Of a stretch of DNA of 64,000 bases, positions 11,046-61,694 are shown piece after piece. The translations under genes were made by a program, and so were the position numbers. Each line of letters starts with the position of its first letter. Position 1 is the first letter of the stretch. The notes beneath the pieces are model-generated. The model was not told where the DNA came from. It ran no database searches and saw only the letters and a program-made list of their open reading frames with translations. Origin of the DNA: Leucoraja erinacea. Its lineage: Eukaryota. The stretch spans positions 20,894,001 to 20,958,000 of the forward strand of contig NC_073397.1 of NCBI RefSeq assembly GCF_028641065.1. Direction: 5' to 3'.

Positions 11046-11724
11046 AGCTATATCTTTTAATCAAAAGGAGAAGATATGTTTGCATATCAGTCTGGATAAA
11101 AATCCTCATACTTTGCCTCATCTACTTTACACACTTTTACAGTACAACAATGATCGTGACAGGCCCAAATACCAATAACTGTTTAATCACCAGAATTTGT
11201 CCAAGATGGATATTCATGAGATGTTGCTCCAACATAAAACAGGATTTGGAAAATTCTACGTCAAATGCACCTTCCCCCACATTTGGAGTGTTACTTAGAG
11301 TGCACAAAGGAACATTTAATTTGTTCCAATACTGATGTTACTAGATGCAACTGTCTATTTTTCGTGTGGCCAAACATTACGGGACGTAAACTGAATTTTC
11401 ATTATGCAATTAGTTGCTTGAATGGCTTCTTACTTCCTGTAGAAAGTTTGGACAGGTCGTTACTGCTGACTCACAATTCTAGTCAATATTTGCAGTGGAT
11501 CCTGCTTTTGTCATTCTTGCATTCTTCAATTGAATCATATATTTATCCTCTTGAATTCCACCTGTGAGGAAATAACCCCACCTGATCTCAAGTTATCTTG
11601 TGCACTGCAGGTAGCTCCTGATAATCTTCTCTGCAGTTTCTTAGTTCCAGGGTGGTGTGTTTTGCCTGATCATTGCTGCAGCCTTGGTCAACTTGTCTTT
11701 GTTTTTGGTGCCAGTTGCTGAAGG

Positions 11725-14187
11725 TCAATTTAAACCGACCGTCTCATCCTTGTTGTCATCAGGGACAGAGACAGTGACTTGAAGAGACTGGTATGTCATC
11801 TTGTAATTGATACCATTGTTGTTGTCCCAGAACTCTACTCCATCAACACTGTACTTGATAGCAAACTGCAGGCAGGTGGCTGCCGGGAGCATGTGTGTAG
11901 TAGGATTCAGTGAGAATGTGAAGCGGTCCATTTTGCCATCAACATTGCTTTCAAATAGGGCTGAAACATCAGTGAAGAGACTCCAATCAGTGCAGGTATA
12001 ACGGACTGTCACCTCCTTATGGTATGCCAGGTTAATGACCAGGATGGTGCCACTGATAACCAGTTCTGACTCTGTCAATGCTTCCAGGCACACCTTCTGG
12101 CTATTCAGTCGTTCACTGAAGTTCTCATCGTCCTTGGGATTGGTGAATTCCATTTTGAAACGCTGCACCCATATCACATGTTCTGTGGGATCAGTGGCAC
12201 TGTAGCTGGCCAGGACATGTGATGGCACTGTTGGCTCTACTGATGAGTCAAAGTTTCGAACTTCTGTTAACTCTAAGCCTAATGAATCTGCAAATCTCAC
12301 CCTACTACTGCCATCGCTTCTGTTGCTCCCTCGCCTCTCTTCTGGGGAGCCCGGACATGATTTTGCTCGTTTCCGCACTGTCGGCTGTAACAGCCAGTCC
12401 CTTTTACCTGGACCAAGATGGGAGCCATCTTGTGCGCTATGCAAGTCATTCTGTGAGCTAAGCCCATCAGCCAAGTGCACACTATCACATAGGCCTGAGA
12501 TGTAACTCCGATTTTGCGTAAGGGTAATAAAGATCTGCTGTTCGAGTTCTGCTTTCTGAGTGGGGTCCAGGGACTCCACATCTTGGCATTTGAAAAACTT
12601 CATCTGTTGTTTGAAAGTCCTGCTGTCACTTGAGGGGACGTGAACACATTGCTCCAATCTCTTGCCCCAAGCTGATTTTGCATCCTGACACACGGTAGGC
12701 TTAATCTGCTCCATTGACTTTGTGGTTCTATACATAAATGATGATTTGGGTTGTACAGGTTGAAAACTCATCCCTTCTACATGCGCTTCTTCTTCTGATT
12801 CCAGCTTCAATTGCACAGCACTCTCAATACTTGGATCGAATGCCGGTTTCATTCCATTTGTCATGGGGTTGGTCAGCTCTGGCACTATGCCATTAACCTG
12901 AGCATGACCAATGTCTTTTTCCGATTCCTGATCGTTAACACTAAATTGGTTCTGCTTTTCTGGTCCTGAACTATCAACTGACTGGTTATCCTGGTTTAAC
13001 TCACCCTTCTTACCTAGCGTACACTGGTTGACCTTCTCTGACCCACTTTTCTTACCATGTGCACACTGAGGTATCTGCTCTAACCCATTACTCTTACTCA
13101 ATACCGGCTGCAAAACCTGGTTTAAATCATCAGGCAATGAAAACTGGGTGACTTGCTCCAAACTGCCTCTCTCACCCATTGTGAATTGGGTGAGGTGCTT
13201 TGAATTATCAATCTCACTCAGGGTATACTGGATAGATTGGGTGATACATTTTAAACCACCACTTTTACCCATTGCAGTTAGATTGGTGCCCTGCCCTAAA
13301 CCAACACCCTCACCCTCAGTGGACTGGGTGACCTGCTGTAAACCTACACCCTCACCCTCAGTGGACTGGGTGGACCGTCCTAAACCAACACCCTTTCCCA
13401 TAGTGGATTGGCTGATCTGTCCTACACCAACACCCTCACCCTTAGTGGACTGGGTGATCTGTCCTAAACCAGCACTCTCGCCCTTGGTGGACTGGGTGAT
13501 CTGTCCTAAACCAACACCATTACCCATTGTGAACTGAGTGATGTGCCCCACATCAACACCCTCACGAGACTGGGTGTTCTGCCCTACACCAACACCCTTA
13601 CCCACAACGTGCCTTAAACCAACACTCTCTCTCTTGGTGTACTGGGTGACCTGCCCTGAGCCTCCATCCTTACCCAGGGCGGACTGAGTGACCTGTGTTA
13701 TTCTTTTGCCCAACTCAAGCACAGAACTGACCTTTTCTAAGGTGGAAACAACTATTTGCTCCTTGCTTGACGGTGAAATCAAATTCAGACCTGCTGGTTT
13801 GATTCTTTGTTCTAATTCAGAATTGCCAACAACTACCATCTGGCTCTTCCCAGGTCTCACCACCTTATCCAGGGCTAACTGAATGCCTGACTCCGACCCA
13901 ACACATTTAACCGGGACAAACTGGGCGCCCTGCTCTAACCTGGTGTTACCTGAACCAGGTTGGGTGCCCAGCTCTGACCCGACGCCCCTGTCCTGCCCGG
14001 GCTGCCCAGGCCGTGATTCCCCGGCGGCTGACAGTTGTTTGACCCCCTTCTTCCAGCCCAGGACCTGCTGGATCTGGTTCCTGAATCCCATGCAGCGGTT
14101 TCCTGGGCCTGCCCGGGCTTCGGGCGCTTGCGGCGGGCGGCCCTGGACGGCGCCGGCTTCGCCCAGACTCTGGGAAGCTGCTGCCAT
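11725..14187 (-). CDS. PPP1R3D: Protein phosphatase 1 regulatory subunit 3D-like glycogen-targeting subunit (CBM21), intronless, 820 aa
   Basis: RKRAKSCPGSPE (cf. RRARSLPSSPE); RVxF motif RVRFADSLGLEL (RVRF at 12292-12303, aa 629-632); CBM21 FSERL..QKVCLE..ISGTILVINLAYHKEVTVRYT..W..FAIKY..EFWDNNNGINY. Strict orthology is uncertain; it could be a duplicate. Confidence 0.85.
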   Translation of the reverse strand: MAAASQSLGEAGAVQGRPPQAPEARAGPGNRCMGFRNQIQQVLGWKKGVKQLSAAGESRPGQPGQDRGVGSELGTQPGSGNTRLEQGAQFVPVKCVGSESGIQLALDKVVRPGKSQMVVVGNSELEQRIKPAGLNLISPSSKEQIVVSTLEKVSSVLELGKRITQVTQSALGKDGGSGQVTQYTKRESVGLRHVVGKGVGVGQNTQSREGVDVGHITQFTMGNGVGLGQITQSTKGESAGLGQITQSTKGEGVGVGQISQSTMGKGVGLGRSTQSTEGEGVGLQQVTQSTEGEGVGLGQGTNLTAMGKSGGLKCITQSIQYTLSEIDNSKHLTQFTMGERGSLEQVTQFSLPDDLNQVLQPVLSKSNGLEQIPQCAHGKKSGSEKVNQCTLGKKGELNQDNQSVDSSGPEKQNQFSVNDQESEKDIGHAQVNGIVPELTNPMTNGMKPAFDPSIESAVQLKLESEEEAHVEGMSFQPVQPKSSFMYRTTKSMEQIKPTVCQDAKSAWGKRLEQCVHVPSSDSRTFKQQMKFFKCQDVESLDPTQKAELEQQIFITLTQNRSYISGLCDSVHLADGLSSQNDLHSAQDGSHLGPGKRDWLLQPTVRKRAKSCPGSPEERRGSNRSDGSSRVRFADSLGLELTEVRNFDSSVEPTVPSHVLASYSATDPTEHVIWVQRFKMEFTNPKDDENFSERLNSQKVCLEALTESELVISGTILVINLAYHKEVTVRYTCTDWSLFTDVSALFESNVDGKMDRFTFSLNPTTHMLPAATCLQFAIKYSVDGVEFWDNNNGINYKMTYQSLQVTVSVPDDNKDETVGLN
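12950..13960 (-). repeat. Coding 42-bp (14-aa) tandem repeat within the PPP1R3D-like ORF
   Basis: Best copies at 13297-13625, consensus GVGLGQITQSTKGE; degenerate copies on both sides. Confidence 0.9.
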
Positions 14188-14420
14188 CGACGGTGCGGGC
14201 GGGCGGCGGCCACGGGCGCCGAGGCGGCTCCATCACCGCGTGCTTTGTGACCAACGTCGACACGTCAGCCGCCCAGTGGTCAGCCCGTCCACAGGGGGCG
14301 GTAGCGACGCTGTGCCGCCTTGGCCCAGTGGTCAGCCCGTCCACAGGGGGCGGTAGCGACGCTGTGCCGCCTTGGCCCAGTGGTCAGCCCGTCCATAGGG
14401 GGCGGTAGCGACGCTGTCCA
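13930..14420 (-). promoter_or_regulatory. CpG island / probable promoter of the PPP1R3D-like gene, including three 52-bp repeats (14271-14418)
   Basis: High CpG density spanning the ATG at 14187; repeat starts at 14271, 14323 and 14375, each containing CCA(C/T)AGGGGGCGGTAG. Confidence 0.7.
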
Positions 14421-15330: not shown

Positions 15331-15540
15331 CACACACAACACACACTCCATCCCACACTCACACATAGACACACACACTCCATCCCACACACACATACAC
15401 ACACACACTCCATCTCACACACACACACCCTCCATATCTCTCTCTCTCTCACACACACACAAACACACACACACACACACCCTCCATCTCACACACACAC
15501 ACACTCCCTCACACACACGCCCACCATCTCACACACTAAC
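15331..15540. repeat. (CA)/(CT)-rich compound microsatellite
   Basis: Direct inspection. Confidence 0.9.
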
Positions 15541-15542
15541 AT

Positions 15543-16440
15543 CCGGTAGGCGGCGCGACTCTGGTCAGCAGCGGCCTCTGCAGCCTGTCCGCGTTTTTAT
15601 TATTTTTTGTCTGTGTTTTTATGTAGTTTTTGTTATTTTATGTTGGGGTGTGTGTGTGGGGGGGCGGTGGTGGGGTGGGAGAGGGGGGGAAACTTTTGAA
15701 CCTCTCCCTGCACTGGAGACCCGACCTTTTCTCGTCGGGTCTCAGTTGTCGTTGGGGCCGCAACGAGGAGCGGCCTCCAACGGGAAGAAGCCGGGGACTC
15801 TGGTGCCGACTCACCGTCGCCGTCGTGGAGCTGGCCGAGACCGGAGCGGGTGGAGCGGTGGAGGAGCGCTGCCGCTGCCGCTGCCGCTGCTGCTGCTGCT
15901 GCTGCCGATGCCGCTGCTGCTGCTGATGCGAAGGCAGGCTGCTACTGCGGGTCTGCGGACGGCGGCACCGGGAGCCCGCGGATCCCTGGAGGGAGACCGC
16001 TTTTCGGGGCTCCTGCAACGGCGACTTCTCCCGCCCGAGTTGCGGGGTTGAAGAGCTCCTGGAGCGGGGCCTAACACCACTGCCCCGCGCGGCTGGAATG
16101 GCCGCGGGACTCTGCGAGCGCACACCGGGGGCTCCAACACCAAGACCCGGTGTGCGACCTCGCACCACCCGGCGTGGCTTTAATGGCCGCGGGACAATCG
16201 CCATCGCCAGCCGGGGGCTTTGACTTTGACTCTGACATCGGGGGGGGGGGGAGTGCAGTGGAGAGATAAGTTTTTTTTGGCCTTCCATCACAGCTATGTG
16301 ATGGATGTTTATGTAAAATGTAATTATGTTGTGTCTGGGGTCTATTTGTGTGTAATGTATGGCTGCAGAAACGGCATTTCATTTGGACCTCCAGGGGTCC
16401 AAATGAAAATTAAATAGACTATTGACTATTGACTATTGAC
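15543..16440 (+). mobile_element. GC-rich non-autonomous retroelement with the same architecture as 7872-8703, nested in the Helitron
   Basis: CCGGTAGGCGG 5' end, T-rich tract, G-run, GC-rich core with (gct)n, ccatcaca..tgtgatgg hairpin, (gactatt)n tail; flanking ACATC duplicated (15539-15543 / 16439-16443). Confidence 0.7.
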
Positions 16441-16509
16441 ATCACACAAAATATATATGACAGTAAAACTCTTGAATCTACTCACGCGGTTGAGCGCGGC
16501 CTCTCTCCT

Positions 16510-55080: not shown

Positions 55081-55263
55081 NNNNNNNNNNNNNNNNNNNN
55101 NNNNNNNNNNNNNNNNNNNNNNNNNNNNNNNNNNNNNNNNNNNNNNNNNNNNNNNNNNNNNNNNNNNNNNNNNNNNNNNNNNNNNNNNNNNNNNNNNNNN
55201 NNNNNNNNNNNNNNNNNNNNNNNNNNNNNNNNNNNNNNNNNNNNNNNNNNNNNNNNNNNNNNN
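55081..55263. other. Assembly gap (N run)
   Basis: 183 N bases. Confidence 1.
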
Positions 55264-55802
55264 NTTCAATATCCATGCCATTGGCTTGTAAGCTATCCAA
55301 GTGGAATATGAGGTGCTATTCTCAAATGGAAGAGGAGGTGCTGTTTATGTATTCTGGTTTGTGGAATTTATTCTGGTCTTGCAGTGGGGTACCCCAACAC
55401 ATTGTGCTTACATCATCTATACATACAATGACATAATTGCTGCCATTATTGCCTTCTATGAATACTTTATTTAATTCTTAAACAAAAATGCACCACAGCA
55501 CTACTTTTCAGCTCTTTCATTGTGGCTCGTAGTTCTGATTGATAAAGTGGCTAGATGTTGTTTCACTTCTATGTATACCTGTTCCTGCTACCCGATTGCT
55601 CTCCTATGCTTCTGTTGAACTAGAAAAGCAATAAACACCAGAGCACAAGGTTGTTAGATTATGGCAGTGTATAATTCTGCTTATATTGATGGTCCAGATG
55701 AATGCCCAGTTTTGTGCTTACATCTATTCTGAGCCTATAATTGTAGTGCAACCCAACACAACAGAGGGTGTCTCAGCAAGATGGGACCTTGTTATCTCTG
55801 AG

Positions 55803-58307: not shown

Positions 58308-61300
58308 ATGGGCAAAGCTCAACTCCAGAATGTAAAGGATCCATCTCTACCACATCCATGTCAAACTGGATCCAGACTAAAACCTACCCATAAAACCACT
58401 GGAGACCACTCTCCTCTCTGTGCACCCGGGTTACAGCCTTTCCCCAATTCACCTGGACTTCACGTTACCTCTCCAGTCACTCGACCTCAAACTGCTCCTG
58501 AAACCACCAGTTCCCAATCTACCCCTTCAGTTCCCAAGCTGAAACCAACTCTCTGTACTACTGGACTTGAACTACCACTCCAAACCTCATCATTCCAACC
58601 TCTTTCCCATACCTTTGGGCTCTATCCTTTGCCTCAAACCGCCAGGATCCACCCTGCCTCAAAGTCTCTTGGTCTACAAACTTCTCTTCATGACCCCAGT
58701 CTCCAATCTTACCTCCATCCCTCAAAATTCGACCATCTCCCTCTAACCCCAGGGCTCCAAACTCCCTTCTTTACTCTCAGGCTCCAACTTCCCACCCAAA
58801 CCTTAGAGCTCCAATGTCCCCCGCATATCCCAGAGCTCCAAACTTCCCCCTGTACCCCCAGATTCCAATCTTCCCCACAAACTGCTGGACTTCCAACAAC
58901 CTGTATCTCTGGGGTCCAACATCCCTACCAGAGCCCAGAGCTCCAAATGCCATCGTTTACGAAAGAGCTCCATATAGTCCAGCTTCCAGAGAATGTTCAG
59001 CAAAACAAAGCAAATGGGCAGAGAAAATTTGTGTGCAATGAATGTGGGAGGGACTGTGCAAAGCGCAGTGCTCTTGAGAAGCATATCCGGTCTCACACTG
59101 GAGAGCGTCCCTTTCCATGTATAACCTGCGGGATTTCTTTCAAAACGCAGAGTAACCTGTATAAACATAATAGGACACAAAGTCATTTGCACAACTGCCA
59201 GCTTTCTGCTGAATTGGTGAGAAGCAACAGGCTAGAGTTGAGTCAGGTGAAGGACAATTTTCCTTGTGAAAATACAGATCAGGAAACAAAAGGAAATTGT
59301 CACATTGACCTGCTTGTGGCTAACTCCAGCAGTGTTGGTCATACAAAGAAGCAAGATTTCACAAATATTGTGCAACGGGATACGTGTTGGAGGAGGGTCC
59401 ATGCTACTGACAAAAGGGAGGATGGCTCACTGGATGGAGAGAAACAGGGCAATGTCCAGCAGCAACTTGGCCAAATGGGAAACAGGCATTTGGTTCTACA
59501 GAGACAGCAGGCCACTTATTTTGCCAAACAGTGGGTACACAAGTCTTCGAATTCCAGTGTACAAACCAATGAAAGCACAGACTCAGGGTACTTTTCCCAT
59601 TCAGACAGTCCTGACCAGCCACAACAGAGTCTACAACACCAGAGCACTGACACAGAGTCAGAGAGGTGCTCTCAGTCCAGTCAGCAGTGGTCAAGTGTCG
59701 GGCAAAGTGTACTGGAGTCAGCCGTGGATGACAAAGCCCTGCAAGGCATGCACCATCCTCCACGTGGTATACAAGAGCTGGAGGAGAGGATCTCAAAGCT
59801 CATCTCTGACAACAAGGCCGTGGTTGACGACAAACATTTGGAAACTGTGCGGCCAAGAAAGACACTTAATTCAAAGCAAGGGAGCATTGATTTACCAATG
59901 CCATACACGTTTAAGGACTCCTTTCACTTTGACATGAAACCTGTTCAAGTCAACAAGAAATCAAGAGTTCCCTCCAGTTTACCAGCATTCACTTACCAAC
60001 TAACACACAAGTTCCCCTCCTTGCCGGATCAGGTTTCCTCTACTGTTGCTTGTTTGCCCATTATAAGGAGCAACTCTGCGCCAGTTAGTAAGAGATGTCT
60101 GATAAGTAATGAAACCGGCAATAGTTCAAGCTCTCACCATCAAGTGATACAAAGGAAATCCACCACCATGTCGCTTGTCACAGACTTGCAATCACACTCA
60201 TTGGACTTCCATCCCCAACAGCATCGAACCCTGGTCAGGCAAACCGCTCTTGAGAGTTTGCCAGCAGGTGGTCTCACCACAGAAGGGCCCAACCCCATTG
60301 TTAAAAATAAGATGTGTAATTCCAAGGTTGAACAAGTTTCAAAGCACAAGTGCAGGTCTTTAGTTAAGAACAATGACCAGAAAAAGCTGAAGAGGTTTTC
60401 ACATGAGAAGTGGTTGATATATGGAGAGGAAACCTTCCGAAAAAAATACCAGGAGCCAAAGGGAGCTACCCACTCTGCTGAGCCACCCGCCTCACACACA
60501 AAGCGCCCTCACAATGTCAAAATGCCAGACAAAGGCATTTCAGTACTCTCTGAGAATCCACACATCAACCCCCTGGCATCATCTTCTGCACAAAAAGTTC
60601 CCGTTCCAAAACACCTTTCAGATGCACTTCCCTTAGCGTCAGTGAAGGTCACAACTTTCAACACCCCAATGTGCCAGGTACAATTTTCACAAAAAAATGT
60701 GGACCAACATTCACCACAACATGAATATCCAGTTCCCTACCATAATGCTAAAGAGACAAAGGCTCCACTAATCCCAGACCGTTCATGGGAAGTACCTGCA
60801 ATTAAATCAGCAGAGAAGCCCAATAGAGGTGAAGGAACGGGCAAGATAACTGCATCACACAATGCTCAAGAAACTGTTGGGGACATGGGGAAGGAACTTA
60901 CTCTCCATCAACGATCACCTACAGTGAGTGGCCAAACATGGAATGATGCTACAAGACCAATGCAAACGCATTTAACACATCCAAAGTTGGTGAGGCAGCT
61001 CAGCATTCTTGTTCCAGAAGGCAAACAAGAAGGAAGAAGTCAAGAAGAGCATAAGCTTCATGAATTTAGGTTGCAGAAAGGTGAAGATGGTAAGTTAGAG
61101 TTTCCGTCAGGAATACCACCCAGGAAGAAGCAACGGCTGAAAGTAGCTGGCACTGGACAGTCAGCAAAGACGCTACAAACTGGTTGTGGTTTGCCAGTTG
61201 GGGCTGTTCTATGTGAGTCACCTCAGTCAAACTGTGACTTCATCCCAGACACCACCCATGAGTCATATCAAGTAATCAAGTGCATGAAGTGGAAGGAGGA

Positions 61301-61694
61301 AGGAAACTCTGTTGAACAGCCTTTGACATCAACAGTGTTCAGTAGTTTTACTGCCGCTGGCTCCTCTCCTTATGACTGTTCTAGTTCTTTGCCAGAGCAA
61401 GAGGCAACACTTTCTATATTCCCCTCCCTTCATTTACAGTCATTTTCAGTGGGCAAAAGTAAAAAGAAAGAAGCAATTAGTCAAGGGGGGTTTCCAACAC
61501 TATTGCAAACAGCTGGAAATCATATAAACAATGTTGGCAAAAACTTACATGTGGGAGTAAGCATGGACCAATGGGAAGCTATTGCATCTCCCCAAGCTGT
61601 GGCTCACCCCTTGCTGAAGCAAGATTTTCTTCCAAAATATCAACTCAAATGGACAAAGAAAGAACCGACTTCACCAAGCCACTCACCGTCATGA
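58308..61694 (+). CDS. ZNF831: Zinc finger protein 831 (HIVEP/Schnurri-related), large coding exon, 1128 aa
   Basis: Two C2H2 fingers [53 protein letters not shown]; ZNF831-type blocks [65 protein letters not shown]; candidate acceptor ...ctctacattag at 58281, 26 nt before the ATG. Confidence 0.9.
58317..58975 (+). repeat. Degenerate coding 27-bp (9-aa) tandem repeat, about 22-24 units
   Basis: PGLQPFPNS / PGLHVTSPV / TGLELPLQT / FGLYPLPQT / PGLQTPFFT / PELQTSPCT / PELQMPSFT. Confidence 0.75.

What the first reader, a model, noticed from the sequence alone, without database searches (positions are those of the whole stretch)
11725..14187. Giant PPP1R3D-like subunit with a ~550-aa extension built partly from 14-aa repeats
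Seen: a single 820-aa ORF starting in a CpG island. PPP1R3D homology begins only around aa 558 (QNRSYISGL) and continues through RAKSCP, RVRF and CBM21. Upstream lie many in-frame 42-bp repeats (GVGLGQITQSTKGE) that decay outward without stops or frameshifts. Known: mammalian PPP1R3D is about 300 aa. Inference: the preserved frame across old, diverged repeats suggests translation and selection. The G/Q/T/S-rich arm could act as a disordered phospho-tunable spacer or scaffold on glycogen particles.
Basis: partly seen in the sequence, partly recalled or inferred. Interest (0 to 1): 0.7.

Follow-up and report, generated by a model that had tools for sequence, protein, structure and literature searches.

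The report
Shark-lineage glycogen regulator with repeat arm
In this skate and in most sharks and the chimaera examined, the gene for a normally small protein that steers a phosphatase to glycogen (PPP1R3D) has an extra front end of up to 550 residues, made of a conserved tip and a fast-changing 14-residue repeat arm, which is likely translated and likely works as a floppy tether to an unknown partner, though no RNA or protein from it was seen here.

Summary
Observation confirmed: one 820-codon ORF (14187-11725, minus strand) starting in a CpG island, with RAKSCP, RVRF, CBM21 and WDNNN. Trees (97/97) and neighbours make it the PPP1R3D orthologue. The extension is ancient, not skate-specific: 14-aa periodicity in 10 of 12 cartilaginous-fish species, chimaera included. 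New here: residues 1-57 form a cap, seen in 7 of 12 species, about as conserved as the PP1/glycogen core and found in no other protein family. All 6 indels in the ORF in related DNA keep the frame, against 1 of 6 in the flank. Repeat residues drift almost neutrally (pN/pS about 0.8) and AlphaFold gives no fold. The clade has also lost the C-terminal WIHFI of its relatives. Best reading: conserved docking tip + length-tolerant disordered spacer + ordinary PP1-glycogen module. The 'phospho-tunable' idea is unsupported. Against: zero reads in the one polyA run laid, and two ray gene models lack cap and arm. The scan's notes held no earlier finding on this gene; they hold two other skate proteins with repeat arms. 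New variant of a known kind.

The parts
11725..14187 (-). Single-frame ORF, 820 aa, PPP1R3D orthologue
13900..14400 (.). CpG island over the start codon (likely promoter; TSS not mapped; edges approximate)
   Evidence: GC 0.71, CpG obs/exp 0.81 at 14001-14400
14017..14187 (-). Conserved N-terminal cap, aa 1-57, core motif F-x-x-Q-I-x-x-V-L-G-W-K-K at aa 35-47
   Evidence: 56/57 identical to Rhinoraja, 34/56, 38/52, 34/52 to three sharks, 27/51 to Callorhinchus; only these orthologues hit
12853..14016 (-). Gly/Gln/Ser/Thr-rich arm, aa 58-445, derived largely from a 42-bp (14-aa) coding minisatellite
13267..13560 (-). Youngest array, aa 210-307, seven units of type GVGLGQITQSTKGE; copy number differs among close relatives
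12538..12852 (-). Non-repeat linker, aa 446-550; the two ray gene models begin at its start
12463..12537 (-). PPP1R3D-type N-terminal motif (LTQNRSYISGL...VHLADG), aa 551-575; matches LPRSLSYINNLYQNVQLAEGFG of frog PPP1R3D
12352..12369 (-). RAKSCP, counterpart of the 14-3-3 site RARS74LP of human R6
   Evidence: PMC4482762 passages
12292..12303 (-). RVRF, PP1-docking RVxF motif
11797..12108 (-). CBM21 glycogen-binding module with WDNNN substrate motif (11815-11829)
11728..11769 (-). Degenerate C-terminus (ETVGLN) in place of WIHFI

Best explanation
This is the skate PPP1R3D gene, whose open frame has an extra 550-residue front end shared with sharks and chimaera, and the protein likely works as a tethered PP1-glycogen adaptor: the conserved 57-residue tip likely docks on an unknown partner, and the repeat arm is predicted to be a disordered spacer. 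Shown: open frame, orthology, intact RVxF, 14-3-3-type, CBM21 and WDNNN motifs, a cap as conserved as the core, frame-keeping indels, near-neutral drift of repeat residues, lineage-specific gain and loss of 14-aa units. Inferred from the family: the core binds PP1, glycogen and glycogen synthase/phosphorylase and so promotes glycogen synthesis. Inferred: a 42-bp coding minisatellite expanded between cap and core before sharks and chimaeras split; selection keeps the frame so that cap and core stay on one chain, while arm length and sequence are loosely held. This would be an N-terminal counterpart of the long C-terminal arm and anchor of PPP1R3F. Untested: translation from Met1, the tissue, the cap's partner.
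For: Orthology: 51-row careful tree joins the long clade with frog PPP1R3D and teleost ppp1r3db at 97/97; AU tests on a 20-row tree reject joining it to either other paralogue clade (p 0.007, 0.009); an endothelin-domain gene lies about 59 kb and a SYCP2-domain gene about 124 kb away on the same contig. Cap: 56/57 identical to Rhinoraja against 336/387 in the arm (Fisher p 0.007) and 227/250 in the core; present in 7 of 12 species' models incl. Callorhinchus. Frame: 6 of 6 indels in the ORF are multiples of 3, 1 of 6 in the 665-bp 3' flank (Fisher p 0.015); substitution-only neutral simulation leaves the 555 codons open in 2.7% of 300 runs at 90% aa identity, 1% at 84%, 0% at 66% or less. Spacer: pN/pS 0.78 among 7 young units; units per species 4-27 by a shark-only profile; net charge near zero, aromatics 0.6-3%; pLDDT under 50 and no secondary structure over aa 1-540 while CBM21 folds at over 90.
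Against: Zero reads over 11304-14318 in the only raw polyA run laid (X12, 7.3 million records, about 6% of the run, tissue unknown, a relative about 98% identical in DNA). 5 of 12 species' models lack the cap: two rays start at the equivalent of Met446 and have no repeats; two Chiloscyllium and one Scyliorhinus model start inside the arm; their DNA could not be read here. A 290-aa Callorhinchus record lacks the whole extension. Met1 has T at -3 and an overlapping upstream ORF starts 46 nt before it. Cap conservation could partly reflect promoter DNA, as no dN/dS could be computed for it. Support in the 20-row tree is only 76/83, and no amniote PPP1R3D was in either tree. FoldIndex is near zero (0.07) for the arm, not clearly disordered, and the cap helix is not more amphipathic than shuffles (p 0.15-0.36). 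Two of the in-frame indels are about one repeat unit long, so the slippage mechanism alone makes them multiples of 3; two of the flank indels lie 5 nt apart and may be one event.
Confidence: 0.55

Rival explanations
1. The extension is translated but close to inert: a coding minisatellite grew inside an old N-terminus and only stops and frameshifts are purged because they would cut off the core; the protein acts as an ordinary PPP1R3D.
For: Near-neutral drift of repeats; 19 of 25 listed single-base differences in the ORF are non-synonymous (a biased subset); arm length varies about threefold; two ray models lack it.
Against: The cap is as conserved as the core over the shark-chimaera split; internal Met codons nearer the core would allow easy loss, yet 10 of 12 species keep an arm.
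Confidence: 0.17
2. The main product is short, started at an internal ATG or from a promoter inside the arm; the long frame is a minor isoform or a 5' leader.
For: Ray models of 362-364 aa, Callorhinchus record of 290 aa; weak -3 base at Met1 and an upstream overlapping ORF; no reads in X12.
Against: A leader would not stay free of stops and frameshifts; Met446 is not conserved (Thr in Rhinoraja, Leu in Cetorhinus); the CpG island sits on Met1 and the arm is CpG-poor (obs/exp 0.12-0.35).
Confidence: 0.1
3. The Gln/Gly-periodic repeats form a structure of their own (beta-solenoid, amyloid-like stack or transglutaminase-crosslinked mesh) that gathers PP1-glycogen particles into a scaffold.
For: The 14-aa period is the top lag in all 10 species with an arm; the chimaera array keeps Gln at unit position 9 in 7 of 10 units at 23% mean identity (shuffle p 0.001), in the same register as shark units.
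Against: Neither AlphaFold model gives any structure in the repeats (both weak tests, 10-12 informative rows); phase breaks and short units are common; pN/pS near 0.8-0.9; shared ancestry alone can explain the kept Gln.
Confidence: 0.1
4. The arm is a phosphorylation- or O-GlcNAc-tuned regulator of the subunit.
For: Ser+Thr make up 14-21% of the arm; 15 [ST]Q sites in this skate.
Against: [ST]Q count falls to 3 in Mustelus and 4 in Callorhinchus; [ST]P sites 0-2; residues drift near neutrally. The known regulatory site (RAKSCP) lies in the core.
Confidence: 0.08

Closest known systems
PPP1R3D (R6, PPP1R6) of bony vertebrates
   Same: RVxF, 14-3-3-type RxxSxP, CBM21 and WDNN motifs in the same order; shared N-terminal motif with frog PPP1R3D; sister clade in trees; single frame.
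   Different: 629 aa precede RVxF against a median of 108 (maximum 199) in 116 short homologues; conserved cap and 14-aa repeat arm; C-terminal W[IV]HF[IV] present in 107 of 117 short homologues but in 0 of 12 members of this clade; about 1.8 times longer skate-to-stingray path than a paralogue (0.39 vs 0.22). Human R6 is 33 kDa (PMC4482762).
PPP1R3F (R3F) and PPP1R3A (GM)
   Same: A PP1/CBM21 module joined by a long arm to a targeting element; R3F is ER-anchored by a C-terminal transmembrane domain (PMC13759716 passages; GM layout recalled).
   Different: Their arm is C-terminal and ends in a membrane anchor; here it is N-terminal, repeat-built, and the tip is a short soluble motif. The likely 3A/3F genes of this genome (L005, L008; names inferred) fall elsewhere in the tree.
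PP1/PTG (PPP1R3C) holoenzyme, PDB 7qm2
   Same: Best sequence and fold match of the core (E 1.7e-21; E 1e-14).
   Different: Paralogue, about 30% identity, covers only aa 623-799.

Membership tests
PP1 glycogen-targeting subunits (PPP1R3) | RVxF PP1-docking motif upstream of CBM21 | tested here: met
   RVRFAD at 629-634, aligned to PTG in 7qm2
PP1 glycogen-targeting subunits (PPP1R3) | CBM21 domain | tested here: met
   PF03370 92.8 bits, cut-off 28.9; model pLDDT over 90 and Foldseek match to PTG CBM21
PP1 glycogen-targeting subunits (PPP1R3) | WDNN substrate-binding motif | tested here: met
   WDNNN at 787-791; function in human R6 from PMC4482762
PP1 glycogen-targeting subunits (PPP1R3) | Binds PP1 and glycogen and raises glycogen synthesis | not testable with these tools
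   needs bench assay
PPP1R3D orthologues | Groups with bony-vertebrate PPP1R3D | tested here: met
   97/97 in 51 rows; 76/83 in 20 rows with both alternatives rejected; no amniote sequence included
PPP1R3D orthologues | Synteny with EDN3, SYCP2, ZNF831 (human order recalled) | tested here: met
   Endothelin and SYCP2_SLD hits within 125 kb on C21; C2H2 ORF at window 58308 (name ZNF831 recalled). FAM217 and RPEL searches gave no C21 hit
PPP1R3D orthologues | 14-3-3 site RARSLP upstream of RVxF | tested here: met
   RAKSCP at 607-612 in this gene and most clade members, altered in Chiloscyllium; binding itself untested
PPP1R3D/E-type short subunits | About 300 aa, ending in W[IV]HF[IV] (typical, not a published criterion) | tested here: not met
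   820 aa, ends ETVGLN; hence filed as a variant
PPP1R3A/PPP1R3F membrane-anchored subunits | Long C-terminal arm with transmembrane anchor | tested here: not met
   protein ends 23 aa after CBM21; tree places it elsewhere
Structured repeat proteins (beta-solenoids) | Repeats fold into a regular coil | tested here: inconclusive
   no structure, pLDDT under 40, shallow alignments

The most novel reading that the evidence does not exclude
Cartilaginous fishes rebuilt PPP1R3D over 400 million years ago into a tissue-restricted anchored glycogen scaffold: a new docking motif (FxxQIxxVLGWKK) replaced the lost C-terminal WIHFI, and a Gln-periodic 14-aa arm stacks or is crosslinked to hold PP1-glycogen particles on a cell structure, a way of placing glycogen not described in other vertebrates.
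Probability: 0.12. Interest if true: 0.7.

Novelty: new variant of a known kind. Interest (0 to 1): 0.4.

Why it matters
The choice of targeting subunit sets the size and place of glycogen particles (PMC3240831, abstract). A whole vertebrate class with a re-engineered PPP1R3D gives a natural test of how that targeting is encoded, names a candidate new docking motif, and points to an unexplained conserved C-terminal motif (WIHFI) that this clade dropped. It also corrects annotation: these genes are listed as uncharacterised, while a different paralogue is often named PPP1R3D in rays. It remains a lineage-specific extension on a known regulator with no function shown.

Tried and rejected
No RNA holder was listed for the ORF. 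Contigs of runs X1, X2, X3, X5 lie in pieces along the ORF, arm included, with no joints, but these runs are only guessed to be RNA, X1 is flagged probably DNA, and they were picked for holding the ORF: not used as evidence of expression. The two unnamed 774/776-aa records on 3.2-kb contigs match the length of the repeat-bounded genomic stretch, so they are no proof of a transcript. High read depth at 15525-16500 is not a neighbouring gene but a dispersed repeat (4537 candidates, 40 scored). Amphipathic membrane helix in the cap: not above shuffles. Five non-orthologue hits to the cap profile (P0142-P0146) are multi-stretch repeat proteins; four were inspected and are unrelated. ESM Atlas gave no usable hit for cap or arm. 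Cap and arm have no second copy in the genome. Second AlphaFold job on the basking-shark protein had mean pLDDT 31 and is uninformative. No complex prediction was obtained, so cap-to-core docking is untested. A soft BLOSUM unit profile had a high shuffle background and its seeds force G3/Q6/Q9, so its column frequencies are circular. Testis-specific expression was considered (fast evolution, CpG start, silence in one run) but nothing tests it; the listing gave no lead. Paper searches found nothing on this gene in cartilaginous fish: 1 unrelated paper; 0; 0; 20 of 40 listed, none relevant; subscription journals and supplements were not searched.

Full report
Observation. The ORF is as described: 14187-11725 on the minus strand, 820 aa, no stop, while the five other frames over the first 555 codons carry 11-38 stops. 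The start lies in a CpG island. The core has RAKSCP, RVRF, a CBM21 domain above the Pfam cut-off and WDNNN; its best solved match is PP1/PTG. A 42-bp array is found at 13285-13565, and a profile made only from shark units finds 12 units between aa 68 and 393, against at most 1 in 50 shuffles.

Identity. The genome holds 8 CBM21 matches among 9 candidates. In a 51-row careful tree this gene and its cartilaginous-fish relatives are sister to frog PPP1R3D and teleost ppp1r3db at 97/97. A 20-row tree gives the same join at only 76/83 but rejects joining the clade to either other paralogue group (p-AU 0.007 and 0.009). Trees used the last 290-300 residues; 44 of the proteins fetched were used in the larger tree, and no amniote sequence was returned by the searches. 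An endothelin-domain gene and a SYCP2-domain gene lie about 59 and 124 kb away on the same contig, and a C2H2 ORF in the window is probably ZNF831; that these flank human PPP1R3D is recalled. FAM217 and RPEL searches gave no hit on this contig.

Distribution. A search among 451-1435-aa proteins gave 10 hits among 7984 scored candidates, 9 of them this gene and cartilaginous-fish orthologues. A search with the core alone gave 15 hits among 1344 candidates, the same 9 plus 6 distant proteins of 29-36% identity; it did not retrieve vertebrate PPP1R3A or 3F, so its reach is limited. Among shorter proteins 120 of 158 hits were listed: 3 belong to this clade, and 117 others are 235-397 aa with a median of 108 residues before RVxF. 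Over 12 species of the clade, lag 14 is the top period in the 10 that have an arm, chimaera included; the chimaera units are in the same register as shark units, with Gln at position 9 in 7 of 10. Different parts of the array have re-expanded in different lineages.

The cap. Residues 1-57 are not repeats. They are 56/57 identical to Rhinoraja where the arm is 336/387 and the core 227/250, and 53-73% identical to sharks and chimaera, like the core. The cap is in 7 of 12 species' models. A profile search of 1.84 billion representatives found it only in these orthologues; five other hits were repetitive proteins. It has no second copy in the genome and is not notably amphipathic.

Selection. In DNA contigs of three related organisms all 6 indels in the ORF are multiples of three (5 in the extension), against 1 of 6 in the 665-bp 3' flank (Fisher p 0.015); two of the former are about one repeat unit, and two of the latter may be one event. 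Neutral substitution to the Rhinoraja level of divergence leaves the extension open in 1-3% of 300 runs, and in none at shark-level divergence. Residues themselves are weakly held: pN/pS among the 7 youngest units is 0.78, and 0.90 over 16 units with one slightly out of phase; 19 of 25 listed differences in the ORF are non-synonymous, 10 of 14 even in the core (biased and small). The core evolves faster than a paralogue, and the C-terminal W[IV]HF[IV] of 107 of 117 short homologues is absent from all 12 clade members.

Structure. AlphaFold folds CBM21 (pLDDT over 90) and gives no structure for aa 1-540; with about 12 rows covering the extension this is weak. A second job on the basking-shark protein was uninformative. 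FoldIndex is borderline.

Expression. No RNA support was obtained. The single raw polyA run, from a relative, had no read on the ORF in 7.3 million records; its tissue is not given. Gene models of Hypanus and Mobula begin at the equivalent of Met446 and lack cap and arm, three other shark models start within the arm, and a 290-aa Callorhinchus record exists beside the 594-aa one. Their DNA could not be read, so real loss and annotation error cannot be told apart. Met446 is not conserved. An overlapping upstream ORF begins 46 nt before Met1.

Mechanism. From the family: RVxF binds PP1, WDNN binds glycogen synthase and phosphorylase, CBM21 binds glycogen, and RARSLP binds 14-3-3 in human R6 (PMC4482762; passages and Introduction read). 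Different subunits set particle size and place (PMC3240831, abstract), and PPP1R3F is ER-anchored through a C-terminal tail (PMC13759716, passages). PMC6084890 (passages) added nothing specific. The pattern here, a conserved tip, a frame-locked but drifting arm of variable length and an intact core, fits best a docking tip on a flexible spacer (0.55). Rivals: inert expansion (0.17), short main product (0.10), structured Gln-periodic scaffold (0.10), phospho-tuned arm (0.08).

Novelty. The proteins are in public databases as uncharacterised. Nine paper searches (listings only, apart from the four papers above) found no description of the extension; subscription journals and supplements were not covered. 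The scan's notes held nothing on this gene but two other skate proteins with N-terminal repeat arms (unchecked), which suggests such arms recur in this lineage and tempers surprise. Verdict: real, ancient, likely translated; new variant of a known kind; interest 0.4.

Noticed in passing
window 13946-14233 (-): 95-codon upstream ORF starting 46 nt before Met1 in another frame, with G at -3 and +4; would dampen translation of the long form if the TSS lies above it (Kozak rule recalled).
   Followed up: partly
window 14271-14417: 52-bp GC-rich tandem repeat, 2.8 copies, 98% match, directly upstream of the start, in the likely promoter.
   Followed up: no
window 15540-16100: CpG-island-like dispersed repeat with thousands of candidate copies at 88-96% identity; family strongly and strand-specifically represented in a polyA run.
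   Followed up: partly
window 58308-61694 (+): 1128-codon open frame with a C2H2 finger pair, probably the large exon of ZNF831 (name recalled).
   Followed up: partly
L001-L008: Eight CBM21 loci in the genome, incl. two PPP1R3C-like sisters (L001, L002) and L004, whose clade public sources name either PPP1R3D or PPP1R3E although it is a separate paralogue.
   Followed up: partly
P0006, P0008 (Chiloscyllium orthologues): RVRF is changed to QVHF and the 14-3-3-type site is altered, hinting at weakened PP1 docking in bamboo sharks.
   Followed up: no
C-termini of P0020-P0136: W[IV]HF[IV] ends 107 of 117 short PPP1R3D/E-type proteins; a search for the motif found no relevant paper among 20 of 40 listed.
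   Followed up: partly
window 55081-55264: Run of 184 N.
   Followed up: no
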